A stretch of 64,000 bases of DNA from a virus, in the IMG/VR virus record IMGVR_UViG_3300029928_000198, one strand, 5' to 3'. Below, in pieces: positions 19,896 to 50,140 of the stretch (position 1 is its first letter; every line of letters starts with the position of its first letter). A model generated the notes under the pieces. It did no database searches. It had not been told where the DNA came from and worked only from the letters and a program-made list of their open reading frames with translations. A program made the translations under genes and the position numbers.

Positions 19896-20051
19896 TTCAA
19901 TCTTCTCCGAAGGAGCGTCGGGTCCCTTCGGAGATGGGATCCCGCGCCCCCGATTCGATGTCCGCATGTGAGCGGACGCGGAGTGAATCGATGGAACGGC
20001 CACTTAACTTGGAGAAAACCTTGGGAAGCATCGGAGATTGGGATTGGAGAT

Positions 20052-20076
20052 ACAAGGAATCGAAACCGCTTAAATA
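20052..20076. promoter_or_regulatory. Conserved 25-bp box, copy 2 (ACAAGGAATCGAAACCGCTTAAATA)
   Basis: See copies at 7621, 32881 and 63007. Confidence 0.65.
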
Positions 20077-20217
20077 TCGATACATGAAGTGGATGGAATA
20101 TGGCGATGCGTTCATCTGACGGGATCGGAATGAGTGTTGCATAATCCGTCGTTTCCGATTCATGGATTTCGCCAGCATGGGCTAAGGTTTGATAACCTTT
20201 GAAATGATTCCATCAGC

Positions 20218-22299
20218 GTGGACATGAACGAGACGGCGGTACGAAACGGTGCTTCGCAGATGGCCGATCTGACATTATTCATCGAACGGGATGCCGGGAT
20301 GCCCGAACGGGGCCTAATAGACCTAACATCCGAGCACGTACGGAACGTGCTTCCTTCGCTGCTGAAGGACAGGACCACCAAGGGCAATATCGTCTGGGGG
20401 ACGGATGCGTACGCGGACCTCGGGTACGGGTGCTCCGACTTCATCTCACCCGAGGCCTTCAGAACAGGAATCCCCGTCCGCCTCAAGGCCAGAACGGAGA
20501 AGACCGACTCCGAGCAGCTTTCCAGAACCCGCGGGAAGGCCGAGGTCTTCACGCCCGGATGGATCTGCAACAGGATGAACAACCACTGCGATTCCGAATG
20601 GTTCGGACGCGAAGACGTCTTCAATGTCGATAACGGCGACGGGACTTGGACCGCCACCGAGGGGAAGATCGCATTCCCGGAGGGGAAGACATGGAAGGAA
20701 TACGTCGATTCCCGCCGCTTGGAGATCACCTGCGGGGAAGCACCGTTCCTCGTTTCAAGGTACGACGCATCCACCGGCGAACCCATCCTTCTAGGCATGC
20801 GCATCGGGATGTTCGACAGGAAGATGAGGGTGGTTGACGAGAACGCGACCTCCGAGGAGGAGTGGATGGAGTGGGCCGTCAGAGCACTCCAGTCCTGCTA
20901 CGGCTACGAGTTCCAAGGAGACAGCCTGCTGATCGCCAGAGTGAACCTTCTGGAATCATTCGTCGATTACTGCATGGACCGCCTCGGGCATGCGCCCGAC
21001 GAGAAGACGGTTTCGCATATTGCCAACATAATCTCGTGGAACCTCTGGCAGATGGACGGGCTTAGGTATTGCCCGCCGTATGCGGTCATGCCCGCGGTTC
21101 AGTTCGACCTTTCGATGTTCGGTCCGGATTCGGGAACGGCCTCGAACGAGAAGGTCCCGTTCCATTCTAAGATATACGATTGGAGACGCGACAATTCGGT
21201 CGCTTTCATCAAATGCAGAAAGAGGGGGAAAATGGACAGGAAGCTATTCGACTATGTGATTGGAAATCCGCCGTATCAGGAGACTCAAAAGGATACTAGC
21301 GATATACCGATTTACAATTTCTTTATGGACGCAGCCTATGATGTAGGAGATCATGTAATTCTAATCACGCCGGGACGCTTCCTTTTTGGTGCTGGAAAAA
21401 CCCCGAAAAGCTGGAACCAAAAAATGCTATCAGACTCGCACTTGAAAGTACTAAAATATGCATCTGATTCAAAATCCGTATTTCCAGCGAATGATATTAA
21501 AGGGGGCGTCGCAATAACATACCGCGACTCACACAGAACTATTGGCCCCATAGGTATCTTCACGGCTTTTCCCGAACTCAACTCGATTTGTAAAAAAGTA
21601 ACTTCCAGCAATGGCTTCAAATCCTTTTCCGATTTGATTTATGCTCCTGAAAGTTACAAATTCTCAAATAAAATGCTGGAAGATTACCCCGAGATATTGT
21701 ACAAAGACGATGGCAACGGAAACAACTTGGGAATATTGAGCGAAGGACATGACAACGACCTTGTAACTAACATTTTTGATAAACTTGAGGGAATTGTTTT
21801 CTTTAGTTCTGTTATCGACTCGAATCATTCCTATGTTCGTATAATCGGAAGGAAAAACAATACAAGAACGAGTATGTTTATCGACAGGGACTATGTAATC
21901 GGTCCAAATAATTTTCCATCATACAAGGTCATCTTACCTAAATCCAATGGTTCTGGCGCAATCGGAGAAGTGCTTAGTACACCCCTGATCGGGGAACCCC
22001 TGATCGGACATACTCAAACATTCATAAGCATAGGTAATTTTGCTACCAGATTAGAAGCAGAAAATGCAATAAAGTATATCAAGTCAAAATTCGCAAGAGT
22101 GATGCTGGGAATAAAAAAAGTCACTCAGGACAATAAGAAAGATGTGTGGGTTTTTGTTCCCGTTCAGGACTTTACAAACAACTCCGACATAGATTGGTCC
22201 GACAGCATCCGTGGCATCGACCTCCAGCTCTACCGCAAGTACAACCTTACCCCGGATGAGGTAAAATTCATCGAATCCCACGTGAAGGAGATGGATTGA
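20218..22299 (+). CDS. Eco57I-like N6-adenine DNA methyltransferase with low-GC target-recognition region
   Basis: EVFTP, LEITCGEAPFL (motif I), IGNPPY (motif IV), ITPGRF. Confidence 0.9.
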   Translation: MDMNETAVRNGASQMADLTLFIERDAGMPERGLIDLTSEHVRNVLPSLLKDRTTKGNIVWGTDAYADLGYGCSDFISPEAFRTGIPVRLKARTEKTDSEQLSRTRGKAEVFTPGWICNRMNNHCDSEWFGREDVFNVDNGDGTWTATEGKIAFPEGKTWKEYVDSRRLEITCGEAPFLVSRYDASTGEPILLGMRIGMFDRKMRVVDENATSEEEWMEWAVRALQSCYGYEFQGDSLLIARVNLLESFVDYCMDRLGHAPDEKTVSHIANIISWNLWQMDGLRYCPPYAVMPAVQFDLSMFGPDSGTASNEKVPFHSKIYDWRRDNSVAFIKCRKRGKMDRKLFDYVIGNPPYQETQKDTSDIPIYNFFMDAAYDVGDHVILITPGRFLFGAGKTPKSWNQKMLSDSHLKVLKYASDSKSVFPANDIKGGVAITYRDSHRTIGPIGIFTAFPELNSICKKVTSSNGFKSFSDLIYAPESYKFSNKMLEDYPEILYKDDGNGNNLGILSEGHDNDLVTNIFDKLEGIVFFSSVIDSNHSYVRIIGRKNNTRTSMFIDRDYVIGPNNFPSYKVILPKSNGSGAIGEVLSTPLIGEPLIGHTQTFISIGNFATRLEAENAIKYIKSKFARVMLGIKKVTQDNKKDVWVFVPVQDFTNNSDIDWSDSIRGIDLQLYRKYNLTPDEVKFIESHVKEMD

Positions 22300-22300
22300 C

Positions 22301-25300
22301 ATGCCCGCGATCCCCATCGATCCTGTATGCGTACGCCATCCGATGATCTACGCCTATACGACGCCCGGAGTCGCCAACAACGACGGATGGGTCAAGATAG
22401 GCTACACCGACCGCGACCCCGACCAGCGCATCAGAGAGCAGACGCACACCGCAGGCATCGTCGCCAAGAGGGAATGGTCCAGCACAGCCATCTACGATTC
22501 CCAATGGAAGCCTTTCAGGGACACCGACTTCCACAGATACCTCCGCTGCAAGGGCGTGGAGCAGCGCGCGGGGACCGAATGGTTCAGGATGGCTCCAGAT
22601 GTCGCCAAATAGTGTCTGAGACACTTCAAGGACAAGGACGGATGCGCCACGGGCGACGGCCCCGCGCCGTACACGCTACGCAAGGAGCAGCAGGCGGCGG
22701 TGGATGCCGCCGAGAGGTACTTCGAATCCAACGAGCATGGCCAGTTCCTCTGGAATGCCAAGCCCCGCTTCGGGAAGACCTTGGCATCCTACGACCTATG
22801 CAAGACCCTCGATGCCAAGAAGGTCCTCATAGTCACCAACCGTCCGGCGATAGCCGATTCATGGTACAGCGACTACGAGAAGTTCCTCGGCCCGTCATCC
22901 GGATACACGTTCGTATCCACCATCAACGGAATCAGAGGCTGCAGATATGTCAGGGACACGGCCGATTTTCCGAACCCCGATTCCAAGATCATCAACTTCG
23001 TCAGCCTTCAGGACCTCAAAGGTTCGCTCCACTTCGGCGGGAATTACGACAAGCTCCGGTACATCAAGGATACGGCATGGGACCTCCTAATCATCGACGA
23101 GGCCCACGAGGGCGTGGACACGTTCAAGACCGACGTCGCCTTCGATCGGATAGACCGCAGATGGACCCTACATCTTTCCGGTACGCCCTTCAAGGCCATC
23201 GCCAGCGACAAGTTCGGTAAGGACGCGGTCTTCAACTGGACCTACGCGGACGAGCAGGAGGCGAAGAGGGAATGGGAAGAGAACTCCGAGAGCTGCAACC
23301 CGTACGGGAATCTTCCGGAACTAACCATGTTCACCTACCGCATGTCGGACATGATAGCCGACAAGGTCGGAGCCGGCATACCGATCGACGGAGAGAACAC
23401 GGACTACGCCTTCGACCTCAACGAGTTCTTCGCCACCGACGGGAAGGGAAGCTTCATCCACGATTCCGATGTGGACAGATTCCTCGATGCGCTGACGACT
23501 CAGGACAGATACCCCTATTCCACGGAGGAACTCAGGGACAAGATGGCCCATACGCTATGGCTGATGGACCGCGTGGATGGGGCTAAGAGGCTGGCCTCGA
23601 AGCTTAGGAACCACCCCGTGTTCGGACAATATACGATCGTCGAAGCGGTCGGCGACTTCAACGACGACGGAAGCAGGGCCAAGAGCGCACTGGAGAAGGT
23701 CCGCAAGGCTATCAGGAACAGCAACAGGACCATAACCCTCACCGTGGGCCAGCTCACCACCGGAGTCACCGTCCCCGAATGGACGGGCGTTCTGATGCTT
23801 TCCAACGTGAAGAGCGCATCCCTGTACATGCAGACCGCATTCAGGGCGCAGACGCCTTGGGAATTCCAAACGAAGGACGGCGTATGCAGGAAGGAGAACG
23901 CCTATGTCTTCGACTTCGACCCGGCAAGGACGCTGGACATCTACGAGCAGTTCGCAAACGACCTGTACAGCGACACCTCCGCAGGAAGAGGGGATTCCGG
24001 CAAGAGGAAGGAGAACGTCCGCAAGCTGCTGAACTTCTTCCCCGTCATAGGAGAGGACGAGGACGGGGCGATGATCGAGCTGGATGCCGAGAAGGTCCTT
24101 TCCATCCCCCGTGCGCTCCGCTCCAAGCAGGTGGTCCGCAGGGGATTCATATGCGACTTCCTCTTCCAGAACGTCACCAACGTCTTCCATGCGTCTCCGA
24201 AGGTATGGGACATCATCGGGATGATGCCCGCAGTGAGCAGGGACGAGGCCCTTAACCTAGATCGCACGGATGCCATGTCGGTCGATCTGGACGAGAACGG
24301 GGAAGTCGTCGTCGATAAGGCGGGCGTGATAGGCCTTTCCAAGGAGCTTTTCGGCGACAAGATATACGAGACCGATGCCGACGACCTTTTCCGGATACTC
24401 GAAGAGAAGGCCGACGGCCCCAAGTCCGCCGAAGACGTCAGGCTTGAGAAGATAATGGATTGCTTCCATCGGGACGTCACCGCCCCGATGATCGACATAG
24501 CCTCGGAGAAGTTCGAGAAGGATCTGAACAGGAGGACCAAGGGCCATCTGGAGAAATACATCGACCTGCAAGCCGAGAACCGCTTCCGCAAGGCCCTGAA
24601 GGAGCATTCCATCAACGAGCGCACGCTCAATTCAGAGATGGAGAAGGAGATCGACTCCGCCCGCGGCGATTCCGCCAAGGAGGAGGTCCGGCGCAGATAC
24701 GACGAACTCATCAAGGAGAACAATCGCAACTTCACCGATGCCGCCAACGAGATATGGAACTCGGCGGCGGAGGATGCCGGGAACTGCATCGTGGAGAAGG
24801 TGGAGACCGACAGGAAGGAGAAGACCAAGAAGGAGGTCAGCGAAGGCATCAGGAACCACCTCAGGGGCTTCAGCAGGACGATACCGTCCTTCCTGATGGC
24901 CTACGGCTCCGAAGCGGACATAACGCTGGCCAACATCGATACGATCGTCCCTCCGGATGTCTTCAAGGAGGTGGCATCCATCTCGGTGGAGGACTTCCGC
25001 CTGCTGCGCGACGGAGGAGAGATGATCGGGGATGACGGGATGTCGGAGCATTTCGACGGGCATCTCTTCGACGAAACGGTGTTCAACGACTCCGTGAAGG
25101 AGTTCATGGCCCTCAGGATACGTCTGGCCGATTACTTCGCCAACGATGCGGAGGACATCTTCGACTACATCCCTCCGCAGAGGAACAACCAGATATTCAC
25201 CCCCAAGCACGTGGTGAAGCAGATGGTCGATATGCTGGAGAAGGAGAATCCCGGGTGCTTCGACGACGATTCCGCCACATTCGCGGACCTGTACATGAAA

Positions 25301-25585
25301 TCGGGCCTGTATGTGGCGGAGATAGTCCGCAGGCTGTACAACAGCCCCGGGATCGCAAGGAAGCACCCTGACAGAGAGGAAAGGCTGAGGCATATATTCG
25401 CCCATCAGGTGTTCGGTCTGGCTCCTTCGGAGATCATCCATAGGATCGTGCTGTCGTATGTTCTAGGGTTCGCGGAGAACGGGAAGAGGATGGAGCACAA
25501 CCTCCGGCGGGGGGACCTGCTGGCCATGGGATCGGGGGAAGAACTCAGGAAGAATCTGATCGAGATGTTCCCCGCATTGAAGTAA
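22301..25585 (+). CDS. Restriction endonuclease-helicase (GIY-YIG/T5orf172 + SF2 DEAD helicase + MTase-like C-terminal fragment), one ORF interrupted by an in-frame TAG at 22610-22612
   Basis: Track ORFs 22301-22612 and 22700-25585 share a frame; only the TAG separates them; the intervening codons encode YTLRKEQ; Walker A AKPRFGKT, DEAH. Confidence 0.85.
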
Positions 25586-25687
25586 GGAGCAGCCTATCCG
25601 CTGCGCCCGGCCGTGCTGGATGGGGCGTGGCGGTCTTTTGTAAACATGGTGCAGAAGAGCCATCCCCAGAAGGGGATGCAAAAGGTT

Positions 25688-26527
25688 TCAACTGCGGTAA
25701 TCGAAGACGGTCAAGACATCATACCCGTTGTACTTCTGCATATAGCCTGCAAGCGTTCCATCCTTGAGGAGGTAGTAGACGTTCCCGTTCGAATCCTCGA
25801 AACCATAGCCTTGAACCTGTCCGCTGGAGAGCTTGATGTACATGTCGTTACAGTCCTTCATGCTCTGCAAGAAAGGATTGTGGGCGGCCATGCTTTCCTT
25901 GACGCTCATGTAGCCCGGCATCGGTACTGGATCGGGTACTACGATCTCTTCTCCGCCGTTAATGTGTATCGTCGGACGCTTGATCGTCACTCCTGAACCC
26001 CAGTCCTCATTCGGTTCCTTGACCGTGGTGTTCGAGTTCTTGTTCACCAGCCTTCCGTCGTCGAATGTTATCTGGGCTTCAGTCCAGTACTCTGTTCCGT
26101 CATCGAGCTTGATGCCGCCGGAGAGATGATAGATTCCATCGAGGGCTTTGGCGTTGACCTTGTCTATCTTGCCGTTATCGCTCCTCCCATCATCTCTATC
26201 GCCATAGTCGGTGAGCACTCCCGAATAGCATACCAGCACTATGACGAGAGCAAGTACGACGCAAACGGCGAATCCCTTCTTCATCGTCGCAGTCAATTCA
26301 TTCATCGGTACGGAGTTGCTGGTCGCGACCTCAGGAGCCGGCTTCAGTGAAGCGGCGGCTCCGAACTTCCTTCCGCATTTATCGCAGAATTTGGCGTCGG
26401 AAAGATTCTCGGTACCGCAGATGGGACAGGTTATCTTCTCCTCGACGGGATCTAGACGCGCACCGCATTCGCGACACATCGTGGCATCGTCGCGGTTGTC
26501 CCTCCCGCATTTCGGACAATTCTTCAT
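25688..26527 (-). CDS. Double zinc-ribbon membrane protein, paralog A
   Basis: CPKC..CREC and CPIC..CDKC, central TM helix, extracellular domain. Confidence 0.85.
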   Translation of the reverse strand: MKNCPKCGRDNRDDATMCRECGARLDPVEEKITCPICGTENLSDAKFCDKCGRKFGAAASLKPAPEVATSNSVPMNELTATMKKGFAVCVVLALVIVLVCYSGVLTDYGDRDDGRSDNGKIDKVNAKALDGIYHLSGGIKLDDGTEYWTEAQITFDDGRLVNKNSNTTVKEPNEDWGSGVTIKRPTIHINGGEEIVVPDPVPMPGYMSVKESMAAHNPFLQSMKDCNDMYIKLSSGQVQGYGFEDSNGNVYYLLKDGTLAGYMQKYNGYDVLTVFDYRS

Positions 26528-26654: not shown

Positions 26655-27506
26655 TCAGCCCTTGCGGTCATAAATTGTTGTGATTTTCACGTTCTCGTAA
26701 CTGAATGTGTAAGCCAGAAGCCTTCCGTCCTTGTTTACATAGTACTTGTTTCCATCCGAATCCTGGAATCCATACGCTTCCAGAGTGGAATAGTCATTGA
26801 TCTTGACCAGCTTGTCACCGCAGTGACTCATTCTGGAAAGGAACGGATTGTGATCGATGATGCTATCCATTGTAGAAACATGACCGGGATTCGGAGGCTC
26901 GGAGATCACATATTCCGTCCCATCGTGCATCGTGACGATGGGACGTGTGATGTCTATTCCGGATTCCCATTGTCCGTTAGGCTCCTTCACAGATGTGCTT
27001 ATATTCTTCTCTACGAGCTTGCCGTTGTCGAACTCGATTATTGCATTGGACCAGTATTCTGTTCCATCCTCAGCTCTGACACCGCCTGAAAGATAAAATG
27101 ATCCATCCAATGGCTTTGCATTCACGGTATCAATCAGACCAGAGCCGCCCCCATTCGAATCATCATCAGACCCGTTGGACAACATGCCTGAACCGAGTAT
27201 GGCTGCCAAGGCCAGAATAACAACCGCCACGACAGCAATCGCAACCCCGTTTTTACTTTCCTTACCGGCGTTGGGGGCCGAATCACGCTTCTGTTGTTGA
27301 GTTTCGTTCTTTTCCGTGACTGCGACATTCGGAGTGTTGAACGATTTACCGCATTTATCACAGAACTTCGATCCAGCGACATTTTCAGTTCCGCAAGATG
27401 AACAGATTAGCCGCTTCTCCGATGGAGATTCAAATTTGATTCCGCATTCGCGACACATGATTGCATCGTCGCGGTTCTCCCCTCCACATTTGGGACAATT
27501 CTTCAT
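26655..27506 (-). CDS. Double zinc-ribbon membrane protein, paralog B
   Basis: Same N-terminus MKNCPKCG and same layout as paralog A; lower GC. Confidence 0.85.
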   Translation of the reverse strand: MKNCPKCGGENRDDAIMCRECGIKFESPSEKRLICSSCGTENVAGSKFCDKCGKSFNTPNVAVTEKNETQQQKRDSAPNAGKESKNGVAIAVVAVVILALAAILGSGMLSNGSDDDSNGGGSGLIDTVNAKPLDGSFYLSGGVRAEDGTEYWSNAIIEFDNGKLVEKNISTSVKEPNGQWESGIDITRPIVTMHDGTEYVISEPPNPGHVSTMDSIIDHNPFLSRMSHCGDKLVKINDYSTLEAYGFQDSDGNKYYVNKDGRLLAYTFSYENVKITTIYDRKG

Positions 27507-34241: not shown

Positions 34242-34449
34242 TACCGTAAAGAGCGATTGCATCGCATTCTTCTCGGATGCCTATGCCGTACCCCGTAACG
34301 AGATGAAAGGACTATTCGACAGGACGGGGCTTTCATCCCTCATAGAAAGCTGCTATCTCGTCGTGATAAGGTATTCGCGCAAGGAATACGACGGAAGAGA
34401 ATCGAACTACATTTCTGTACAGACCGCGTGCGGACATAGGGATTGTTGA
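34228..34449 (+). CDS. DUF3791-like small protein
   Basis: CIAFFSDAYAVPRNEMKGLFDRTGLSSLIESCY; overlaps upstream stop. Confidence 0.45.
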   Translation: MPTPDTVKSDCIAFFSDAYAVPRNEMKGLFDRTGLSSLIESCYLVVIRYSRKEYDGRESNYISVQTACGHRDC

Positions 34450-35146
34450 AATATCCGCATGCGGTCCCCGTCTTGCCGGACCTCGAAAGCATCCCCGACG
34501 GGTCTTTCTTGTCATGGGGTCTGGCTCGCCTGCGCCTTCTTATGACGACCTCGACGTCGTCGCCCACGGACAATCCCAGCCTGTCGCAAATCTGGCTTAT
34601 CCTGAGGACCGCGCTGTTCCCCGACTTGGCTATCCTCAGCGTTCCCGACCATGCGCCCTCGTTGAACATCTCGGGGTCGGAGACCCATAGGCATGACTCC
34701 CACTCGTGGGAAACGGGGAAGTCGTCCCTTATCTCGCACGCCATGACCGTGCATGCGGAACGCTCGTCGTCGGCCATGGAATCCCAGATGCGCATCGCTT
34801 CCTCCACCGCGCCGTCGGGATCGTCCGTGTAGCCCGTCGGGGGCATCAGCTCCGATTCGGCGGAGAAGACGGCCACGGCGTACCTGCGGATGCGCCACTC
34901 GGAGTCCGAAGGTACGGCGCAATCCGGGCGGACGGGAACCGGCCATAGGCCCTCGGGGGAATCCGTTGGACATATCCCCGCATCGAGGGACCTCTTGATC
35001 TCCGCGATCCTCTTGGTATCGTCAACGGGTACGGTCTGGACCGAATGCCCTCCGTCGTCGGAGAACATTATCCGGAAAACCCTCATGCGGGGCATCCAGA
35101 GGACCTTCAGGCCGTCGAAGGTCCACTGCATCCTTCTGGAGGACAT
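34340..35146 (-). CDS. Hypothetical protein with AbrB/SpoVT-like C-terminal domain
   Basis: RIAKSGNSAVLRI...LGLSVGDDVEVVI; AAGGAG RBS. Confidence 0.7.
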   Translation of the reverse strand: MSSRRMQWTFDGLKVLWMPRMRVFRIMFSDDGGHSVQTVPVDDTKRIAEIKRSLDAGICPTDSPEGLWPVPVRPDCAVPSDSEWRIRRYAVAVFSAESELMPPTGYTDDPDGAVEEAMRIWDSMADDERSACTVMACEIRDDFPVSHEWESCLWVSDPEMFNEGAWSGTLRIAKSGNSAVLRISQICDRLGLSVGDDVEVVIRRRRRARPHDKKDPSGMLSRSGKTGTACGYFNNPYVRTRSVQKCSSILFRRIPCANTLSRRDSSFL

Positions 35147-35162
35147 CGTCGCTCCTTGCGCC

Positions 35163-35456
35163 CTACAGGCGCGAATCCGTGGCGATAAGGGTCCGCATCG
35201 GGAACGGGCATCGGAGGTACAGCTCCTTCATGCATTCCAGCATCTCCTTCTCCTCGCGGTTCACCTTCGCCCAGTCGATCGGCTCGAATCTGGGGCATTG
35301 CCCCGCGTTCATCAGATCGATCTCGTCATCGGACATCGATTCCCATTCGGGACAGTCGAAATCGTCTATTCCCCCGTACCCCGAATCGACCTTGACCGTT
35401 CCGACGCATACCTTCGCGCAGTTCTCGCAGCACCTGTCCCCAATCATCCTTGCCAT
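35163..35456 (-). CDS. Cys-rich hypothetical protein
   Basis: CCENCAKVC...CP..CP; operon context. Confidence 0.7.
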   Translation of the reverse strand: MARMIGDRCCENCAKVCVGTVKVDSGYGGIDDFDCPEWESMSDDEIDLMNAGQCPRFEPIDWAKVNREEKEMLECMKELYLRCPFPMRTLIATDSRL

Positions 35457-36381: not shown

Positions 36382-36550
36382 GCAGTTCTCCTCCTTCCGC
36401 CTCATAGGTTGTATGCCCATGATATGTGAATGAATGTATTCCATTTATAACTAGTTATCGGCTCATTTAATATAATACTAAAATTCGGCATCCATCGATA
36501 CGGAAGACCGAAAACGCCGGGATCGATGATGGGAAGGAATGGGAACGGGC

Positions 36551-37387
36551 CTAAGGCCCGCAGTATGTGGAAACAGAATGCAATGAGAACGGCCGTCGGG
36601 ATACTTCCTGACGAACGAATGGGTCGAACGACTCCAAGGACGACTTGAGGGGCCTAGCCTCGGAAACCCTCTTCAGGGCCGTTGCATGGTACCCGGGATC
36701 GACCTCGAAGCCGATGTAGTGCACGCCCAGCTGGACGCACGCCACGGCGGTGGTCCCCGTACCTATGAACGGGTCCAGAACCGTGAACCGCCCCCCCCCG
36801 TCGGGGCCTATGTGGTTCCCTATAAGGGTGCGGACGATGTCCAGAGGCTTCACCGTGGGGTGGCCGTAGAGTTCGCGGTCCGCGCGGTTCACCCCCGTGG
36901 CCCACCACTTCTTCTTGGTGGCGTAGCTCCCGTACAGCGTGACCCCCTTCCCGCGTATGAAGACGATGTACTCGGTGTCGGACAGGTACTTGTTGGAGCA
37001 GGTGGGGACGGGGTTGGTCTTATGCCACGCAAGGATGTCCCATGTGCATCCGTGGGATTCGGCGAAGCGGATGTACTGCAGGATCTGCGACTTGCTGCAG
37101 AACGCATACATGACGATGCGCTTCATTTTCGATGCGATCTTCTCCAACAGGGCGTCTGAAAGGCCGTCGGACATTTTCCCGAGCTCGTCGAAGTAGCGGC
37201 GGTTGGCGTTTCCGAAGGCTCCCGCCCCTTGGGTCCCCATCTTGTAGGGCGGGTCCATGAGGACCATGTCCACGGAGCCGTCGGGGACGAGATCGAGGCC
37301 TTCGGAGCAATCCATGTTGAGGATGGAATCCATCATGCCCGCGTCGTTGCAGGCTTCGAGCAGTCTTTCCAGCTCCGCCTCGCTCAT
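36551..37387 (-). CDS. Site-specific N4/N6 DNA methyltransferase (beta class, orphan)
   Basis: DPPY, HPTVKP, VLDPFIGTGTT. Confidence 0.92.
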   Translation of the reverse strand: MSEAELERLLEACNDAGMMDSILNMDCSEGLDLVPDGSVDMVLMDPPYKMGTQGAGAFGNANRRYFDELGKMSDGLSDALLEKIASKMKRIVMYAFCSKSQILQYIRFAESHGCTWDILAWHKTNPVPTCSNKYLSDTEYIVFIRGKGVTLYGSYATKKKWWATGVNRADRELYGHPTVKPLDIVRTLIGNHIGPDGGGRFTVLDPFIGTGTTAVACVQLGVHYIGFEVDPGYHATALKRVSEARPLKSSLESFDPFVRQEVSRRPFSLHSVSTYCGP

Positions 37388-37598
37388 CGACGACGGCCTC
37401 CCAGACGGTGGCGACGTTCCCGGGGTTGACCATGACGGTCCCGATCGGGCGTATCATACCCCACTTCCTGAGCTGCTTTATCTTGCGGTATACGGCCAGA
37501 CGGTCCCTGTCCTCGTTCCCCGAAAGACCTGCGGCTATGTCGGTGGCCGTATGGGGGCCGTTGGCCTTCAGGTAGCCGAACACGTCGTCCTGATTCAT
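37020..37598 (-). CDS. Winged-helix protein (about 70-aa domain; the frame runs on into the MTase gene)
   Basis: VFGYLKANGPHTATDIA...VYRKIKQLRKWGMI; true end uncertain. Confidence 0.6.
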   Translation of the reverse strand: MNQDDVFGYLKANGPHTATDIAAGLSGNEDRDRLAVYRKIKQLRKWGMIRPIGTVMVNPGNVATVWEAVVDERGGAGKTARSLQRRGHDGFHPQHGLLRRPRSRPRRLRGHGPHGPALQDGDPRGGSLRKRQPPLLRRARENVRRPFRRPVGEDRIENEAHRHVCVLQQVADPAVHPLRRIPRMHMGHPCVA

Positions 37599-38389
37599 TC
37601 CGCTCCCCCCGTCGTCCATCTCTCTTCAGGAGATGACCGGAAGACTATGCCGTAGCAGTAGACTTCCGCACCTTCCATGATGCGGAACTCCGAATGGGGG
37701 ATGGCGGTCCTGTAGACCCATGAGGTCCCCTGCTCCTCGGGCGGGTTCCAGTCGGCCTTCACCGTCCATCCTCTGGTGCTGGTTGCGACGCATCCGCCGA
37801 ACGCTCCGAACTCCTCGGAGAAGACGCCACTGAACTCCATCATGTCGTTCGATGAGCCGTAGACGACCTCCAGCCCCTTCTTGGAAAGCTCGTCGATGTC
37901 CTTGCGGCCTATGAACAGAGGGTAGTTCGACCCATCGAGGAGCTTGGCCGCCCTGTCTATCTCGGGGTCGCCGCACATGACGGGTTCATGCCCTATCTCC
38001 ACCTTCTTCCAGAGCTTTCCCAAATCGATAGGATCGACGAAGCTGCGGACCCATTCGCCGTCTATCAGCGTCAGGAAGCCCTGAAGGCCGAAGCCCATCA
38101 GGGTCCCCGTCTCCGACTTGGCGAATCCTCCTGCGGCGACCACGCCCATGGCCTCCTCGTAAACCAAGTCGTAGTCGTCCTTGAGGATCCTGTAGCCCTC
38201 CTCCCCGTTGAGATCGAACATCCGCACCTTCGAGTAGCCTTCCCTTCTGGAATCGCTTTCGTACAGGTTCCCGTCGGCGAAGAATCTGAACCTTTCCAGA
38301 CGCGAATTCACCAGCGTCCTCCCATCGACGAGGGCCTTCATCCAGTGATACGGCGTGGAGGGCCTTCCTGCGTTGTTGCCGGAATCCAT
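37595..38389 (-). CDS. Virus-like hypothetical protein
   Basis: C-terminal VVYGSSNDMMEF...W.YRTAIPHSEFRIMEG..YCYGIVF is a pattern I recall from phage hypotheticals; start re-called to MDSGNN. Confidence 0.7.
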   Translation of the reverse strand: MDSGNNAGRPSTPYHWMKALVDGRTLVNSRLERFRFFADGNLYESDSRREGYSKVRMFDLNGEEGYRILKDDYDLVYEEAMGVVAAGGFAKSETGTLMGFGLQGFLTLIDGEWVRSFVDPIDLGKLWKKVEIGHEPVMCGDPEIDRAAKLLDGSNYPLFIGRKDIDELSKKGLEVVYGSSNDMMEFSGVFSEEFGAFGGCVATSTRGWTVKADWNPPEEQGTSWVYRTAIPHSEFRIMEGAEVYCYGIVFRSSPEERWTTGGAE

Positions 38390-38391
38390 GC

Positions 38392-38775
38392 TTAACCGCC
38401 TCCTATGATGAATGGTCTGATGCCGCGGAGGGATGACCCTCGCGGCGTGTTCAGGCCTCGGTATCTCCTCCAGTCCTTGGCGGTCAGGTCGTCCAAGCAA
38501 GGATTCCATGGGATGTGCACCTCGCCCTTGGAGATGTGGATCGGGAAGGAATCGTCGCGCTCGTAGCGTTTTATCCCCGATGCGGAGATGGACCAGCCCT
38601 CCTTCCAGACATCGCGGCGGAAGCTGGCATCGCGGTCTCCCAGCATCCCCCCGACGACCTGAGCGAAGGTGAGGCCGTCTTCTGAATCGGGGGTCCGGGG
38701 GGACCCTTCCAGCATCTCGGCGACCAGCGGATCGTCGGAGAAGGTGTCCAGAAGGGCATCTGCGATGGGGTCCAT
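38392..38775 (-). CDS. DUF2829 (MW1434/Tad2)-like protein
   Basis: LTFAQVV...FRRDVW...PWNPCLDDLTAKDW resembles TF.EA...V.R..W...PW.P...D..A.DW. Confidence 0.6.
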   Translation of the reverse strand: MDPIADALLDTFSDDPLVAEMLEGSPRTPDSEDGLTFAQVVGGMLGDRDASFRRDVWKEGWSISASGIKRYERDDSFPIHISKGEVHIPWNPCLDDLTAKDWRRYRGLNTPRGSSLRGIRPFIIGGG

Positions 38776-39287
38776 CACTTCCCCTCCGCCATGAGCTTCG
38801 TAAGGATGTCCGTGCATCTGTTGATCGTATCCGCATCGATCCTCGCCACATCGGGTCCGAGCCTCCTGAACAGCTGCTCTATGGGATCGGGCTGGCTGTC
38901 GGGACGCTTCTGCTCCTTCTTCTCGGATGCAGGGTCCTCCCCGGTTGCGCCTTCCGCCTTCTTGGGCGCGTCCTCCGCCTTCTTCGGAGCCTCCTTCGGG
39001 GATTCCCCGGGATCGCGCCTGTCGGCCTTGGGGGCGGTGCTGACGGGATGCGCGGATATGGCGCAAACGGTAGGTCTGAGCAGGGACAGCTCCTTGTCCA
39101 GCCTTTCTCTGGCTTCGAGCAGCGCGGCGTACCTCTGCATCGGGTCCACGTTGACGGAGTCGCGGACGGACTCCAACGCCTTGCCCATGTTGTATGACAG
39201 ATGCCATGCATCGCACACATCGTCCACGCTCACGACGACGGCCCTTCCCGCCATGGGAAGGATCGGTCTGATGTTCACACGGCTCAT
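38775..39287 (-). CDS. Degenerate DUF3310-like domain plus low-complexity linker
   Basis: DVCDAWHLSYNMGKAL...LLEARERLDKEL. Confidence 0.45.
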   Translation of the reverse strand: MSRVNIRPILPMAGRAVVVSVDDVCDAWHLSYNMGKALESVRDSVNVDPMQRYAALLEARERLDKELSLLRPTVCAISAHPVSTAPKADRRDPGESPKEAPKKAEDAPKKAEGATGEDPASEKKEQKRPDSQPDPIEQLFRRLGPDVARIDADTINRCTDILTKLMAEGK

Positions 39288-45641: not shown

Positions 45642-46516
45642 TGCATCACCTCCTCGGACGGCTCGCAGCCCGTCTGTTGGGGTTCGGACGGGTTTAGACG
45701 GACTTCGGCGGATGTTTGGTACTCGGATACGTCCGAAGCCCCTTCGTCGATTCTAGAGGGCTTCTCGACATTGTTCTCGGACTCCGCGCACTTCATGAGG
45801 TGCAGCGGATCGTAGGGCGAAGACTCGACGTAATCGAGGATCGCGCGGCGGACGAGGACCATGACGTCCCTTCCCTCGCACAACGCCCTTCCGCGAAGCT
45901 CCATGTCCATCTCCTCGGACATGTACCACGACAGGCGGATGGTCTGGTCCCTCATCATCCCGAGCGGAAGGTAGGGGCGCGGCTCGTGGTTCGTTTTCTG
46001 AAGGAGCTGCTTTATCGCTTCCTCGACCACGGCGGTCATCTTCCGCCTTTCGAGATCGGCGACGACCTTGACGCGGTCCCTCAGCTCCCTGTCGATGCGG
46101 ACGAGTCCGTTCACGCGGGGTTCTGTCCTCTTCGAGTCTCCGGGACAGATGAGGTCGGTGCCTTCGAACCTGTAGCCCTCGGGAAGCCTGTTGTAGTCGG
46201 GACCGTACCTCGAAGCATCATCGGTCGCGTCTTGAGCGTCGGCGACCTCGGCGACGGCATCCGATGCTTCCGAGGATGCTCCATGCCCTTCGGTGCTTGG
46301 GGATGCAATCTTGGTGTTCGCTCCGTCCACGGGTTCGCTAGCATCATCCGCGACATCATCGATGTACTCCGCGCCTTCCTCCGATGCTCCGCGCACGCTT
46401 CCGTATGCTTCAAGTCCGCTTCCTGTCCTCGGTTCGTCGTTTGCGTACTCGTAGGCATCTTCGGTGTTCGTAAAGTCGGCTTCCGCCGTCGCAAAGGGTT
46501 CCCTTTCCGAACGCAT
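45638..46516 (-). CDS. Acidic protein with tandem RHH-like domains
   Basis: VRIDRELRDRVKVVA...VVEEAI; WYMSEEMDMELR...LVRRAI. Confidence 0.7.
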   Translation of the reverse strand: MRSEREPFATAEADFTNTEDAYEYANDEPRTGSGLEAYGSVRGASEEGAEYIDDVADDASEPVDGANTKIASPSTEGHGASSEASDAVAEVADAQDATDDASRYGPDYNRLPEGYRFEGTDLICPGDSKRTEPRVNGLVRIDRELRDRVKVVADLERRKMTAVVEEAIKQLLQKTNHEPRPYLPLGMMRDQTIRLSWYMSEEMDMELRGRALCEGRDVMVLVRRAILDYVESSPYDPLHLMKCAESENNVEKPSRIDEGASDVSEYQTSAEVRLNPSEPQQTGCEPSEEVMQ

Positions 46517-46587
46517 CAAACCTCACCCCTTTCCGAACGGTTTTCGGGGGTTTTTTGACCCCTTTCCGAACATACCCCTTTCCGAAC
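46501..46587. repeat. Four copies of CCCTTTCCGAAC
   Basis: At 46501, 46527, 46560 and 46576. Confidence 0.9.
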
Positions 46588-47394
46588 GCTTATCGCATCG
46601 TTGTAGAGGCGCATGTATTCGCTGTAACGGTCCTTCGTTCCCTTGTAGCGGTAGTACTCGACGGGTTCCCCGTCCTTGTTGTAGCGGATGGTCGGCTCGT
46701 CCTCCCTCTTCTTGAGTTCGGCGATGAATGCGGAGGTGGACATGCCGAGGATGTTCTCCGCGACGAAAGACAAGGACTTGCCCGCACGGGCGAAGTTGAA
46801 GATCATGTCCTCGGAGTAGATCTTCGTGGTGCGCCCGTCCTTGGTCTTGGCGGGGTCCAGAACGACGCGGCCCTTGGGGAACTTGTCCACATCCTCGGCG
46901 AAGGCGAAGCGGACGGGACGGCTGCAGTACTTGCCGTCCAGCTTGCGCGTGTACATGCCCGATTTGGTGTTGGCCTTGAGCTTGACGCGCTCCTCCTGTC
47001 CCGCCCAAGTCTTGATGTTGTTGAACACCTGACCGATTCCTGTCTCGGGGGTGCTGGATGAGTTCACGTAGCGAATCATGACCCCTCTGTCGCCCAGACG
47101 CTTGACGATGGTGTTCATGTCGTCAACATCCCTAGAGATACGGGACTCGTCTCTGGCCACGACCATGGTTATCCCCTCGTCGCCCTCGAAGATGGTGCCC
47201 ATGAGTGCTCTCCACTGGGTGCGCTTGGTGTTCCCTGCGGACATCTTCTCGATGAAGACATCGACGATGGTGACGTCGTGCTCCTCGCACCATGCCCTCA
47301 TCTGACGGACTTGAGTTTCAGGGTCCTGATCCTTGTCGTCGGTGGAAACCCTAGCGTAGAGGAGTGCTCTTGCTCCGGTGTACTTCTCGACCAT
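46516..47394 (-). CDS. Serine recombinase (resolvase/integrase family)
   Basis: YARVST catalytic Ser, Q..Q, SAG...R, SRISRD. Confidence 0.92.
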   Translation of the reverse strand: MVEKYTGARALLYARVSTDDKDQDPETQVRQMRAWCEEHDVTIVDVFIEKMSAGNTKRTQWRALMGTIFEGDEGITMVVARDESRISRDVDDMNTIVKRLGDRGVMIRYVNSSSTPETGIGQVFNNIKTWAGQEERVKLKANTKSGMYTRKLDGKYCSRPVRFAFAEDVDKFPKGRVVLDPAKTKDGRTTKIYSEDMIFNFARAGKSLSFVAENILGMSTSAFIAELKKREDEPTIRYNKDGEPVEYYRYKGTKDRYSEYMRLYNDAISVRKGVCSERGQKTPENRSERGEV

Positions 47395-47903: not shown

Positions 47904-48124
47904 GCCCTCCCCTCCATGAATCCGCTTCCGAAGCCGTCCGACCCCTCATAGGCCTCTTCGAGGGCGGGCATTTCGCGGGCGTAAATCGCCATGCGGTCTC
48001 CGTCCACGATGATCTGGGCGTTGGGGTGCTCTGCCTTGTATCCGTCGATGATCCTCTTTATCTCCGGGACGGTATCGCGGAATGTCGCAAGGATCGTTTC
48101 GCGTGTGGTGTTCGTCGCAGTCAT
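47900..48124 (-). CDS. Small hypothetical protein
   Basis: 74 aa, ATGA-coupled, AGGAGG RBS. Confidence 0.7.
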   Translation of the reverse strand: MTATNTTRETILATFRDTVPEIKRIIDGYKAEHPNAQIIVDGDRMAIYAREMPALEEAYEGSDGFGSGFMEGRA

Positions 48125-49350
48125 TGCGTTACCTCCTGTGTTTTCTCTTCATGGGAAGGGGTTTCGGAATCGGTTTTCGCGTCGCCTTGGGGCTGCGCGG
48201 TCTTCTTGGACCTGCCGGCGGAGGTCTTCCTCGCGCCTGCGCGTCCGGTGGACTTCGATGCCTTCTTGGCTCCGACCTTCTTCTTAGAAGCCCCCGTGCT
48301 TTTCGTGGCCGTCCTGCCGGCCTTCTTCCTGACGGCGGCAATCACCTCGGATGCCTTGTCGGCGATCTCCGCAAGGCGTGCGGGGTCCTCCGCAAGCGGC
48401 TGAGGGTTGTCGGGCTGGTCGTACTGGTCGTAGCCGAAAAGACCCGCATAGTCCTCTTCCGACTGGCTGCGGATTTCAGAATGATGGGCGACTGCTTCGT
48501 TCCCCTTGGGGCCGGGAATCTGCTCCACGGCCCTGCGCCCTGCGTTGCGGGGTACGATGGGGCGTATCGCTTCGCGGGTCCCCAAGGGGATGATGCTGGG
48601 CCTAGGCTCGCGGAAGTTCGAATCGTCCTCGTCGGTCACGGGGATGATTATCGGCTCGTCCTCGGGGATGTCGTCGGACGTGTCCAGAGGCTCATCGATC
48701 TCGTCGTCCTCGGGAATGTCATCCTCGGACATCTGGTCCTGAGGGGTCTGAGAATAGAGGCTCTTGAGGTCTTCCAGCTGCTTGCGGAGCGCGTCGATCT
48801 CGTCCTTCAGGCCAGCCGTCTCGTCGTCTTGGAGGTAGTCGGCATAATCGCCTTCCTCAGGCTCTTCCTCGACGTCTTCGTGCTCCTCTTCTTCAGGCTC
48901 CTCGTCTTCGGAATCCGCGTTGGAATCCTCGAATCCCCCTTCGACGCCCATCTCCTCGTAGTAGGGGTTCAGGGCGTCCGCAAGCATCGAAACGTAGTCG
49001 TCCTTGGACAGGATGGCGTTGCGGATGGACGTGTCGCATAGCTCAAGGTCCTCAAGTGTGGATTCGCACCATTGGCCGTGGAGGTCAATGTCGTCCGTCA
49101 TGGTCTTCGGAAGCGCAGGCTCCTTCAGGATCTTCCGAGTGGTCATCAGGGAATTCTGGACTACGGGTTTGGCAAGTCCGATCATCCTTGCGACCTGCTC
49201 AAGCAGGACGGTATCGGATTCTCCGGAAGGCGCGATGGACTCCTTGTACTGGTGGAGCGCGGAGTTGACCATCACCACATGGATGTGGGCCTTGAATGCG
49301 TCACCCAGAAAGCGTGCAAGGATGGGCGTCCCCCTCTTGGCCTCGGTCAC
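48121..49350 (-). CDS. Protein with helical N-terminus, long acidic region and K-rich tail
   Basis: GTG start 49350 with AAGGAGGT RBS and GTGA overlap. Confidence 0.75.
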   Translation of the reverse strand: MTEAKRGTPILARFLGDAFKAHIHVVMVNSALHQYKESIAPSGESDTVLLEQVARMIGLAKPVVQNSLMTTRKILKEPALPKTMTDDIDLHGQWCESTLEDLELCDTSIRNAILSKDDYVSMLADALNPYYEEMGVEGGFEDSNADSEDEEPEEEEHEDVEEEPEEGDYADYLQDDETAGLKDEIDALRKQLEDLKSLYSQTPQDQMSEDDIPEDDEIDEPLDTSDDIPEDEPIIIPVTDEDDSNFREPRPSIIPLGTREAIRPIVPRNAGRRAVEQIPGPKGNEAVAHHSEIRSQSEEDYAGLFGYDQYDQPDNPQPLAEDPARLAEIADKASEVIAAVRKKAGRTATKSTGASKKKVGAKKASKSTGRAGARKTSAGRSKKTAQPQGDAKTDSETPSHEEKTQEVTQ

Positions 49351-49526
49351 TGGAAGACCTCCTTGGTTCTCAGGGGAATCATGGACCATCCGCTTCCAGC
49401 CATGAATCCGCTGGCCCTGTATCCGCACTCGAAGCATCTGAACGTCCCCATGAAGGGGTTGCGGGGGTGGATGGACATCTCGCCCACGGCCTTGCAGCAG
49501 GGGCAAACGATGATGTTTCCGCTCAC
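49347..49526 (-). CDS. Small zinc-finger protein
   Basis: CPCC...CFECG; GTGA overlaps at both ends. Confidence 0.6.
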   Translation of the reverse strand: MSGNIIVCPCCKAVGEMSIHPRNPFMGTFRCFECGYRASGFMAGSGWSMIPLRTKEVFQ

Positions 49527-50140
49527 TGGACCGCCCCCTCGATGGGAATGAGGAAGACGCACCTGTCCGTGTCGATGCGGAGGACATCCCCTAGGATGGA
49601 AGCGGAGGATATGTCGAAGATTCCCGAAGTTTCGGAGCAGTCAGACACTTCGACCCACGATTCGGAGCAGTCGGTGCAAATCGACAGGCCGCATCCCGCA
49701 TCCATGCGGAAGTAGTCCATGTCGTCCTCTCCGTCGATTCCTTCGGCATCGACCTTGACAAATCCATCGGGCGAATCGATCCATGTCATCTCGACGGCCG
49801 AAACGATCCTCTCGGCTTCCGATGCCGAAATCGAAGAGATGCATCCCGATCCGACTGAGAAAGGCTCGCACTCCATCTCGAATGTGGGGAATGCCACCAT
49901 GAAGCCGTCAATGCAGTAGACAACGGCCATCCTGTCCTCAATCTCTATGACGGAAACCCCGTCGTAGCGGAGGATGTCGCCGGGTTCGTCGTCGCAAGGG
50001 ATGCGGAGGACGGAGCCGTTCTGACAGGGAAGCGAAATGTCCTGCCAGACGTAGCGTCCCAAGGAGCAAAGGACGTCGTGGTACTCCGTGGATATGGCGT
50101 CGCATATCTCCATCAGGCCCGAGGCATGACCGAAGTTCAT
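49523..50140 (-). CDS. Acidic beta-rich hypothetical protein
   Basis: 205-aa ORF, ATGA-coupled. Confidence 0.7.
   Translation of the reverse strand: MNFGHASGLMEICDAISTEYHDVLCSLGRYVWQDISLPCQNGSVLRIPCDDEPGDILRYDGVSVIEIEDRMAVVYCIDGFMVAFPTFEMECEPFSVGSGCISSISASEAERIVSAVEMTWIDSPDGFVKVDAEGIDGEDDMDYFRMDAGCGLSICTDCSESWVEVSDCSETSGIFDISSASILGDVLRIDTDRCVFLIPIEGAVQ

What the first reader, a model, noticed from the sequence alone, without database searches (positions are those of the whole stretch)
22301..25585. In-frame amber codon inside the restriction endonuclease-helicase: candidate pyrrolysine-dependent defence gene
Seen: one TAG (codon 104, 22610-22612) separates the GIY-YIG/T5orf172 domain from the helicase in the same frame. 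The 29 codons after it are sense and encode YTLRKEQ, the helicase Q-motif-like segment missing from the 961-aa ORF, giving a 1094-aa protein. Only 2 of about 65 stop codons I checked in the window are TAG. Known: Methanomassiliicoccales decode UAG as pyrrolysine, including in non-methylamine genes. Inference: full-length nuclease production depends on Pyl supply, so restriction would be host-restricted or metabolically gated while the MTase is made regardless. The pyl genes are not in this window.
Basis: partly seen in the sequence, partly recalled or inferred. Interest (0 to 1): 0.8.

Follow-up and report, generated by a model that had tools for sequence, protein, structure and literature searches.

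The report
Amber codon inside archaeal restriction nuclease
A restriction enzyme gene on a mobile element of a gut methanogen carries one conserved in-frame TAG, which is most likely read as pyrrolysine as in other genes of these archaea, so it is a real but fairly ordinary example of a known genetic-code quirk.

Summary
A single TAG (22610-22612, codon 104) interrupts a 1094-codon frame. About 130 full-length relatives, nearly all bacterial, align across that position without a gap or a stop. The stop is not a read error. The same 103/104-aa and 961-971-aa pieces recur on dozens of independent metagenome contigs, and no near-identical uninterrupted form is on record. The gene is not decaying: variation within the lineage avoids family-invariant residues (3 of 79 sites against 25 expected, p=5.5e-10). 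The first restart codon (GTG 22700) would remove the helicase Q motif.

The host could not be read because no genome is held. Three window proteins point to Thermoplasmatota or Methanomethylophilaceae. GC is 56.2%, and TAG ends only about 2 of 61 credible genes, which resembles Methanomethylophilus alvus. Published proteomics shows that this organism reads TAG as pyrrolysine (Genetic Code 34).

The best reading is therefore pyrrolysine read-through at a permissive surface position, fixed by drift. The idea of metabolic gating has no support. The pyl genes, the stop codon used in other strains, and the protein itself remain untested. This is a new member of a known kind. Earlier notes of this scan described the same restriction-enzyme family in bacterial genomes.

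The parts
20218..22299 (+). N6-adenine DNA methyltransferase of the restriction-modification pair (693 aa, NPPY at residue 350). Its TGA stop lies one base before the nuclease ATG.
   Evidence: Pfam Eco57I 3e-16. PADLOC MTase_II 2.7e-91 and REase_MTase_IIG positions 1011-1359. NPPY motif. A methyltransferase lies immediately upstream on the same strand in 116 of 124 relatives' loci.
22301..25585 (+). Whole nuclease-helicase reading frame: 1094 codons plus TAA, with one internal TAG.
   Evidence: Translation. Full-length relatives of 1103-1140 aa at 50-61% identity align colinearly.
22301..22609 (+). Part before the TAG (103 aa): GIY-YIG-type T5orf172 nuclease domain, lacking the end of its last helix.
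   Evidence: Pfam T5orf172 3.1e-7 and MUG113 1.8e-6. The same ORF, ending in DVAK, occurs in 7 variants on 83 contigs. Best codon-model frame. AlphaFold helix 99-111.
22610..22612 (+). In-frame amber codon, codon 104; proposed pyrrolysine.
   Evidence: Sequence. The aligned position holds 14 different residues and never a stop in 129 relatives, and 22 of those codons are one substitution from TAG.
22613..22699 (+). 29 sense codons between the TAG and the first restart codon. They cover the end of the nuclease helix, the linker and the helicase Q motif (Y124, L126, R127, E129, Q130).
   Evidence: All eight family-invariant residues of this stretch are kept. Codon-model score is best in this frame, 0.19. 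The profile alignment to UvrB covers the Q-motif region and pairs family-invariant Q130 with a UvrB glutamine; that this is UvrB's Q-motif Gln is my own knowledge. Variants P0128 and P0135 encode the same LRKEQQAAV.
22700..25585 (+). Remainder of the frame, which is the 961-aa ORF under the standard code: SF2 helicase core (GKT at 158, DEAH at 266) and a long C-terminal region.
   Evidence: Pfam ResIII 4.1e-14. Motifs. Foldseek matches to Snf2-type ATPases and to Type ISP LlaGI 5ffj and LlaBIII 4xqk. Forty intact variants are in the protein collection.

Best explanation
This is one gene, not two. It encodes the nuclease-motor subunit of a two-gene, ATP-dependent restriction-modification system: an Eco57I-type methyltransferase followed by a GIY-YIG/T5orf172 nuclease fused to an SF2 helicase. 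The family is very common in gut and rumen bacteria, and here it is carried as cargo on a mobile element of a Methanomethylophilaceae-type gut methanogen. In that host TAG is read by tRNA-Pyl, so codon 104 is translated as pyrrolysine and the 1094-aa enzyme is made. The TAG most likely arose by a single substitution at a hypervariable position that I infer to be surface-exposed, in the last helix of the nuclease domain. It was then kept because, in a cell that reads TAG as an amino acid, it is nearly neutral. One consequence follows, though nothing shows it is an adaptation: the nuclease can be made whole only in a Pyl-decoding cell, whereas the methyltransferase has no such dependence. Shown here: the TAG, the colinear homology, the recurrence of the stop among strains, purifying selection, and the loss of the Q motif if translation restarts. 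Inferred: host identity, Pyl decoding, neutrality and surface exposure.
For: The TAG and the single frame are in the sequence. Full-length relatives align across it without gaps, and the flanks of the TAG carry family-invariant residues on both sides. None of 129 relatives has a stop there. The stop at this codon is fixed in the lineage: the 103/104-aa N-part occurs on 83 contigs, the 961-971-aa C-part occurs in 40 variants up to 5% divergent, and no near-identical uninterrupted protein was found among proteins of 601-1915 aa. Within-lineage variable sites avoid family-invariant positions, 3 of 79 against 25.2 expected, p=5.5e-10. Pfam places the start of ResIII at residue 124, ten residues before the only restart codon. 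The profile alignment to UvrB covers the Q-motif region and pairs Q130 with a UvrB glutamine. Both the N-part and the 29-codon stretch score as coding in this frame. Host signals: the nearest named relatives of the reverse transcriptase are Candidatus Methanomethylophilaceae MAGs. The nearest Atlas clusters of the integrase and of the Zot-like ATPase are archaeal, with Thermoplasmatota commonest. GC is 56.2%, against 55.6% for M. alvus (PMC4153887). TAG ends about 2 of 61 credible genes, which fits 1.6-4.5% and fits poorly with 11.3% (p=0.026) or 20% (p<2e-4). Literature: M. alvus has 1.6% TAG stops and 16 predicted non-methyltransferase Pyl proteins, including Cas1 and a prophage helicase (PMC4153887). 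Kivenson et al. propose that Methanomethylophilus reads all TAG codons as Pyl, and their proteomics found Pyl in proteins of M. alvi not previously known to contain it (bioRxiv 10.1101/2024.09.30.615893).
Against: The host genome is not held, so pylT and pylSBCD could not be looked for. Host assignment rests on 50-52% named hits and on cluster taxa. DNA of the near-identical copies could not be fetched, so I do not know whether their stop is always TAG. Two other credible genes in the window end in TAG. For one of them (35163-35456, minus strand), read-through would add 46 residues and overlap the next ORF out of frame by 125 nt. That fits TAG being a stop at least sometimes. The selection test is powered mainly by the C-part. 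The N-part alone has 7 variable sites, none at invariant positions against 1.5 expected, which is not significant. An AGGAG lies 12 nt upstream of GTG 22700, similar to the one 10 nt upstream of ATG 22301. No other convincing internal TAG gene is in this window.
Confidence: 0.7

Rival explanations
1. Dosage valve or host lock. The TAG is kept by selection because competition between release factor and tRNA-Pyl lowers nuclease output relative to the methyltransferase, or silences the nuclease in any cell that cannot make Pyl. This is essentially the first reader's gating idea.
For: The TAG is in the toxic partner only, and the methyltransferase ends in TGA and has no internal TAG. The stop is conserved in every known strain. 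Ambiguous amber decoding is reported for Methanosarcina (PMC12626013, title and significance statement only). Two TAG-terminated genes in the window suggest that TAG is not purely a sense codon here.
Against: Position 104 is hypervariable in the family, as expected for a neutral hit. One internal TAG in about 62 genes matches the background rate published for M. alvus, 20 of 1653. Kivenson et al. found that the incidence of Pyl in Cas proteins was no different from random mutation. Pyl machinery is inferred to be constitutive in M. alvus-type archaea. No structured element follows the TAG, z=-0.65.
Confidence: 0.1
2. Functional split enzyme. TAG terminates translation, giving a free 103-aa nuclease fragment. 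The helicase is translated separately from GTG 22700, and the two assemble non-covalently.
For: Both pieces are intact in all strains. The C-part is under purifying selection. An AGGAG lies 12 nt upstream of the GTG.
Against: The restart product would lack Y124, L126, R127, E129 and Q130, which are invariant in the family and form the Q-motif region. The 103-aa product would end in the middle of a helix. The 29 codons in between remain in frame, free of stops, coding-like, and keep all eight invariant residues. All 129 relatives that span the position are fused. The AGGAG is itself the Lys-Glu of the conserved LRKEQ motif.
Confidence: 0.1
3. Nonsense pseudogene. The nuclease was knocked out by a stop, leaving an orphan methyltransferase that is tolerated or favoured on the element.
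For: Loss of the nuclease with retention of the methyltransferase is common for restriction systems (general knowledge). The host pyl genes are unverified.
Against: No second lesion appears in any of the 15 C-part variants that I compared (of 40 in the cluster) or in any of 7 N-part variants, despite up to 5% amino-acid divergence. Substitutions avoid invariant sites, p=5.5e-10. Note that gene-caller ascertainment hides badly broken copies.
Confidence: 0.08
4. Sequencing or assembly error, or read-through by another code such as phage-type TAG=Gln with a suppressor tRNA carried by the element.
For: None specific. TAG=Gln recoding exists in gut phages (bioRxiv 10.1101/2022.01.06.475225, title and abstract only).
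Against: The same stop position is seen on 83 independent contigs. No tRNA gene is in the window. There is only one internal TAG gene rather than many. The element's proteins point to an archaeal host.
Confidence: 0.02

Closest known systems
Predicted and proteomically confirmed non-methylamine Pyl proteins of Methanomethylophilus alvus/alvi and other Genetic Code 34 archaea (Borrel et al. 2014, PMC4153887; Kivenson et al. 2024, bioRxiv 10.1101/2024.09.30.615893)
   Same: There is a single internal TAG with homology on both sides to one protein, which is their 'Category 1'. The TAG lies at a non-conserved position in a horizontally mobile or defence-type gene, as with Cas1, a prophage helicase, a methyltransferase and transposases in their lists. 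The background shows TAG scarcity and TGA dominance.
   Different: Here the gene is the nuclease-motor subunit of a restriction-modification system on a large mobile element. The word 'restriction' in the enzyme sense does not occur in the main text of either paper, and their supplementary tables were not available. Host identity and Pyl incorporation are inferred here, not shown.
Type ISP restriction-modification enzymes LlaGI and LlaBIII (PDB 5ffj, 4xqk)
   Same: Both have an SF2/Snf2-like translocating ATPase joined to a nuclease and working with an N6-adenine methyltransferase and target-recognition module. The nuclease protein and the methyltransferase both hit the same PADLOC model, REase_MTase_IIG, at its opposite ends. 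Foldseek matches lobe 1 to LlaGI and LlaBIII.
   Different: This system is split into two genes instead of one polypeptide. It has a GIY-YIG/T5orf172 nuclease instead of an Mrr-type nuclease. Sequence similarity to solved structures is too weak for phmmer. No biochemistry is known for this family.
Bacterial members of the same two-gene family (about 50-61% identity; Clostridia, Actinomycetota, Bacteroides and others, plus one Methanosphaera MAG)
   Same: Same domain order, same length, the same methyltransferase-then-nuclease operon (116 of 124 loci), and the same invariant motifs.
   Different: None has a stop at the aligned codon. The window's lineage is separated from them by a gap from 99% to 61% identity.

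Membership tests
Internal-TAG ('Category 1') Pyl gene of a Code 34 archaeon (criteria of Kivenson et al.) | [quoted passage not shown] | tested here: met
   50-61% identity to full-length relatives on both sides, in single alignments across the position
Internal-TAG ('Category 1') Pyl gene of a Code 34 archaeon (criteria of Kivenson et al.) | Read-through extends the protein by more than 15 residues without an out-of-frame overlap | tested here: met
   The extension is 990 residues, ends at TAA 25583-25585, and overlaps no other credible gene
Internal-TAG ('Category 1') Pyl gene of a Code 34 archaeon (criteria of Kivenson et al.) | Host genome encodes tRNA-Pyl, PylS and PylBCD | not testable with these tools
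   No genome is held for the window. No handle to any Thermoplasmatota genome could be obtained. There is no tRNA in the window.
Internal-TAG ('Category 1') Pyl gene of a Code 34 archaeon (criteria of Kivenson et al.) | Host belongs to a Pyl-decoding lineage (Methanomethylophilaceae) | tested here: inconclusive
   The nearest named reverse-transcriptase hits are Methanomethylophilaceae MAGs at 50-52%. Atlas clusters for the integrase and the ATPase are Thermoplasmatota. GC is 56.2%. These signals agree but are indirect.
Internal-TAG ('Category 1') Pyl gene of a Code 34 archaeon (criteria of Kivenson et al.) | TAG rare as a gene end and no large out-of-frame overlaps on read-through ('Category 4') | tested here: inconclusive
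   About 2 of 61 credible genes end in TAG. One of them would overlap the next ORF by 125 nt on read-through. Only 64 kb could be examined.
Internal-TAG ('Category 1') Pyl gene of a Code 34 archaeon (criteria of Kivenson et al.) | Pyl residue detected in the protein | not testable with these tools
   This needs mass spectrometry.
Type ISP restriction-modification enzymes | SF2 ATPase with Q motif, Walker A and DEAH box | tested here: met
   ResIII 4.1e-14. GKT at 158 and DEAH at 266. Q130 pairs with a UvrB glutamine in the Q-motif region. Foldseek matches LlaGI and LlaBIII.
Type ISP restriction-modification enzymes | Nuclease, motor, methyltransferase and target-recognition domain in one polypeptide | tested here: not met
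   There are two genes, with the methyltransferase at 20218-22299 separate from the nuclease-motor. The system works like Type ISP but is not a member.
Type ISP restriction-modification enzymes | Mrr/PD-(D/E)xK nuclease domain | tested here: not met
   The N-terminal domain is T5orf172/GIY-YIG-type.
Nonsense pseudogene | Relaxed constraint and secondary lesions in copies that share the stop | tested here: not met
   There are no further stops or frameshifts in the variants I compared, 15 of the 40 C-part members and all 7 N-part variants. Variable sites avoid invariant positions, p=5.5e-10.

The most novel reading that the evidence does not exclude
The amber codon acts as a selected safety catch on the toxic half of a restriction system that travels on a virus-like element. 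Nuclease output is set by competition between tRNA-Pyl and release factor, so it is tied to the cell's Pyl charging state. The nuclease is also silent in any host that lacks the Pyl machinery, while the methyltransferase is always made. That would be the first case of a genetic-code expansion used to control a defence system.
Probability: 0.08. Interest if true: 0.65.

Novelty: new member of a known kind. Interest (0 to 1): 0.3.

Why it matters
If the reading is right, standard-code annotation cuts a working restriction enzyme into a 103-aa 'hypothetical protein' and a 961-aa 'helicase' on dozens of gut metagenome contigs. The defence repertoire of Methanomethylophilaceae and their mobile elements is then under-counted unless genes are called with TAG as a sense codon. 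It also shows that a gene family otherwise found almost entirely in gut and rumen bacteria, here carried by an archaeal mobile element, has drifted into dependence on the host's expanded code. That makes the gene a one-way passenger. It adds a defence nuclease to the published list of Pyl-containing proteins and offers a convenient non-essential reporter for amber read-through efficiency in these archaea. It does not change current understanding of pyrrolysine or of restriction systems.

Tried and rejected
1. Whole-genome search for pyl genes was impossible. No genome is held. The only archaeal handle I could reach was a Methanosphaera genome, and the control genomes give no handles.

The exact-pattern scan of metagenome contigs found nothing. 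Protein-guided scans of metagenome, genome and viral contigs returned only relatives at 45-62%. Megablast against phages and plasmids found nothing.

3. A search for related elements through the spike-like protein found nothing in viral contigs.

4. I tested other possible internal-TAG genes. Read-through ORFs 37595-39220 and 48121-49767 (minus strand) looked like analogues, but the upstream segments code in a different frame and no domain spans the TAG. Both were rejected.

5. A PYLIS-like hairpin after the TAG is not supported, z=-0.65.

6. Names for the closer reverse-transcriptase and integrase relatives were not available.

7. The C-terminal 227 residues gave no Pfam hit even at E=10. The resemblance of the NQIFTP block to methyltransferase motif X therefore stays an untested impression.

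8. My first codon-model run had an off-frame training gene. I corrected it.

9. The same-strand-only TAG scan was contaminated by frames antisense to real genes. I replaced it with the six-frame test.

10. The Medvedeva et al. virus compendium could not be read because it is not held.
Full report
**What is in the sequence**

The frame that opens at ATG 22301 runs to TAA 25583-25585. It contains exactly one stop, TAG at 22610-22612, which is codon 104. Reading TAG as an amino acid gives a 1094-residue protein. Pfam places a T5orf172/MUG113 (GIY-YIG-type) nuclease domain at residues 16-102 and a ResIII SF2 helicase domain beginning at residue 124. The next in-frame start-like codon after the TAG is GTG 22700, codon 134.

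Directly upstream lies a 693-aa Eco57I-type N6-adenine methyltransferase with NPPY at residue 350. It ends one base before the ATG.

**It is one gene by homology**

A search of 5.8 billion proteins found thousands of relatives of about 1100-1140 aa at up to 61% identity. Those that carry a name come from gut and rumen bacteria. Fifteen of them align with the read-through protein from end to end, with invariant residues on both sides of the TAG: E93, W94 and F95 before it, and F109, G114, Y124, L126, R127, E129, Q130 and A133 after it.

In 146 fetched loci, the methyltransferase lies immediately upstream on the same strand in 116 of the 124 loci where it was found. This is a conserved two-gene operon. 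The aligned codon in 129 relatives encodes 14 different amino acids and is never a stop. Twenty-two of those codons are one substitution away from TAG. Codon 104 is therefore a permissive, hypervariable position.

**Where the TAG sits in the fold**

An AlphaFold model of residues 1-330 (30-sequence alignment, mean pLDDT 80.6) puts residue 104 inside the last helix of the nuclease domain, helix 99-111. A low-confidence linker follows at 112-127, and the helicase starts at helix 128-143. A product ending at residue 103 would therefore be clipped within a helix.

A product restarting at V134 would lose the first ten positions of the ResIII domain. A family profile aligns the YxLRxEQ block to the YQPQGDQ region of UvrB, pairing Q130 with a UvrB glutamine. 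I recognise that region as the Q motif from my own knowledge.

**Not an error and not decaying**

By exact look-up, the 103/104-aa N-terminal ORF, always ending in DVAK, exists in 7 variants on 83 contigs. The C-terminal ORF exists in 40 variants of 961-971 aa. The variants I compared differ from the window at 1 to 51 positions, and all are intact. No near-identical uninterrupted protein appeared among proteins of 601-1915 aa. The stop at this codon is therefore shared by every known strain.

Two variants happen to start at residue 125 and encode the same LRKEQQAAV. Across the lineage, 79 variable sites hit only 3 positions that are invariant in the 14 distant homologues, where 25.2 are expected under a uniform distribution (p=5.5e-10). 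That is purifying selection.

Three caveats apply:
- The power of this test comes mainly from the C-part.
- Gene-caller ascertainment hides badly broken copies.

**Who is the host?**

No whole genome is held, and I could not get a handle on any Thermoplasmatota genome. The pyl genes are therefore untested. The indirect evidence agrees:
- The nearest named relatives of the window's reverse transcriptase are Candidatus Methanomethylophilaceae MAG proteins at 50-52% identity.
- The nearest Atlas clusters of the integrase and of the Zot-like ATPase are archaeal, with Thermoplasmatota the commonest phylum.
- GC is 56.2%, against 55.6% for Ca. M. alvus.
- Stop usage among 64 coding-like ORFs is TGA 54, TAA 5 and TAG 5.

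Of the five TAG cases, one is the nuclease N-part and two are weak ORFs, which leaves about 2 of 61. That count fits the published 1.6% for M. alvus or 4-5% for Methanosarcina. It fits poorly with 11.3% for M. luminyensis (p=0.026) and with the 20-30% of Pyl bacteria (p<2e-4). Earlier notes of this scan also call this a mobile element of gut Methanomassiliicoccales. I used them only as leads.

**What is already known**

Borrel et al. 2014 predicted 16 non-methyltransferase Pyl proteins in M. alvus, including Cas1, a prophage helicase and a methyltransferase. They argued that with constitutive tRNA-Pyl an in-frame amber mutation becomes a stable mutation.

Kivenson et al. 2024 defined Genetic Code 34, in which all TAG codons are Pyl. 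They list Methanomethylophilus among the recoded genera and confirmed Pyl by proteomics in M. alvi proteins. They predict over a thousand Pyl proteins, including helicases, Cas proteins and transposases. They also note that the incidence in Cas proteins is no different from random mutation.

By their criteria this gene is a textbook 'Category 1' case. One internal TAG in about 62 genes also matches the M. alvus background of 20 in 1653.

**Most likely mechanism and what remains open**

Read-through as pyrrolysine gives the full-length nuclease-motor. The TAG was fixed by drift at a tolerant site. I put this at about 0.7.

No structure follows the TAG (z=-0.65). The site is permissive. Pyl supply is inferred to be constitutive in this clade. 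Host restriction of nuclease production is a logical consequence, not a demonstrated function.

Three points speak against too much confidence:
- Two credible genes in the window end in TAG. The N6/N4 methyltransferase at 36551-37387 would gain 27 residues on read-through. ORF 35163-35456 would gain 46 residues and overlap the next ORF out of frame by 125 nt. TAG may therefore sometimes terminate here.
- An AGGAG lies 12 nt before GTG 22700, although it is also the Lys-Glu of the conserved motif.
- No second internal-TAG gene was found in the window. Two candidates were rejected on frame evidence.

**System type**

The nuclease protein and the methyltransferase hit opposite ends of the same PADLOC model, REase_MTase_IIG. 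Foldseek matches the motor lobe to Snf2-type ATPases and to Type ISP LlaGI and LlaBIII. The system therefore works like a Type ISP enzyme. It fails two defining features, however: it is split into two proteins, and its nuclease is GIY-YIG-type rather than Mrr-type. Earlier notes of this scan reached the same description for bacterial members of the family.

**Verdict**

This is a new member of a known kind. Interest is modest (0.3). The main practical point is that annotating these elements with the standard code splits and hides a functional defence gene.

Noticed in passing
window 36467-37387 (-): The N6_N4 DNA methyltransferase gene ends in TAG at 36551-36553. If TAG is read through, it gains a 27-residue tail up to TAA 36467. 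The tail does not look like coding sequence (codon score -0.26).
   Followed up: partly
window 35022-35456 (-): A 97-aa coding-like ORF ends in TAG at 35163-35165. Read-through would add 46 residues and overlap the next ORF (34340-35146) out of frame by 125 nt. This is the kind of case that argues for TAG still acting as a stop.
   Followed up: partly
window, all coding-like ORFs: TGA dominates strongly as the stop codon (54 of 64). Nearly all genes are on the minus strand, except the restriction-modification operon at 20218-25585.
   Followed up: yes
window 56528-58003 (-) and 54264-56570 (-): A reverse transcriptase lies next to a PKD/Flg_new surface protein, which looks like a diversity-generating retroelement. 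The reverse-transcriptase ORF is 491 aa, whereas most relatives are about 363 aa.
   Followed up: partly
window 20001-22000 versus 22001-26000: GC is 49.8% over the methyltransferase gene but 56-57% over the nuclease gene. The methyltransferase's identity to relatives is also patchy, with matches often starting at residue 344, just before NPPY. This suggests that the specificity module was exchanged.
   Followed up: no
window 25150-25250 (+), residues about 955-1000 of the nuclease: A family-invariant block (PPQ..NQIFTP..V..M....NPGC) near the C-terminus resembles methyltransferase motif X, but the last 227 residues give no Pfam hit even at E=10.
   Followed up: partly
window 25688-26527 (-) and 26655-27506 (-): Two paralogous double-zinc-ribbon proteins matching DUF7577 and DUF7129 lie directly downstream of the restriction-modification operon.
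   Followed up: no
window 46516-47394 (-) and 52497-54071 (-): A serine recombinase (resolvase) and a tyrosine integrase lie within 6 kb of each other. Relatives of the integrase are few (9 hits) and all unnamed.
   Followed up: partly
relatives' loci L001-L146: Two internal stops occur among 129 full-length alignments of the mostly bacterial relatives. Broken copies of this nuclease are therefore rare but do exist. One locus, L031, comes from a Methanosphaera MAG, which shows the family has entered other gut archaea.
   Followed up: no
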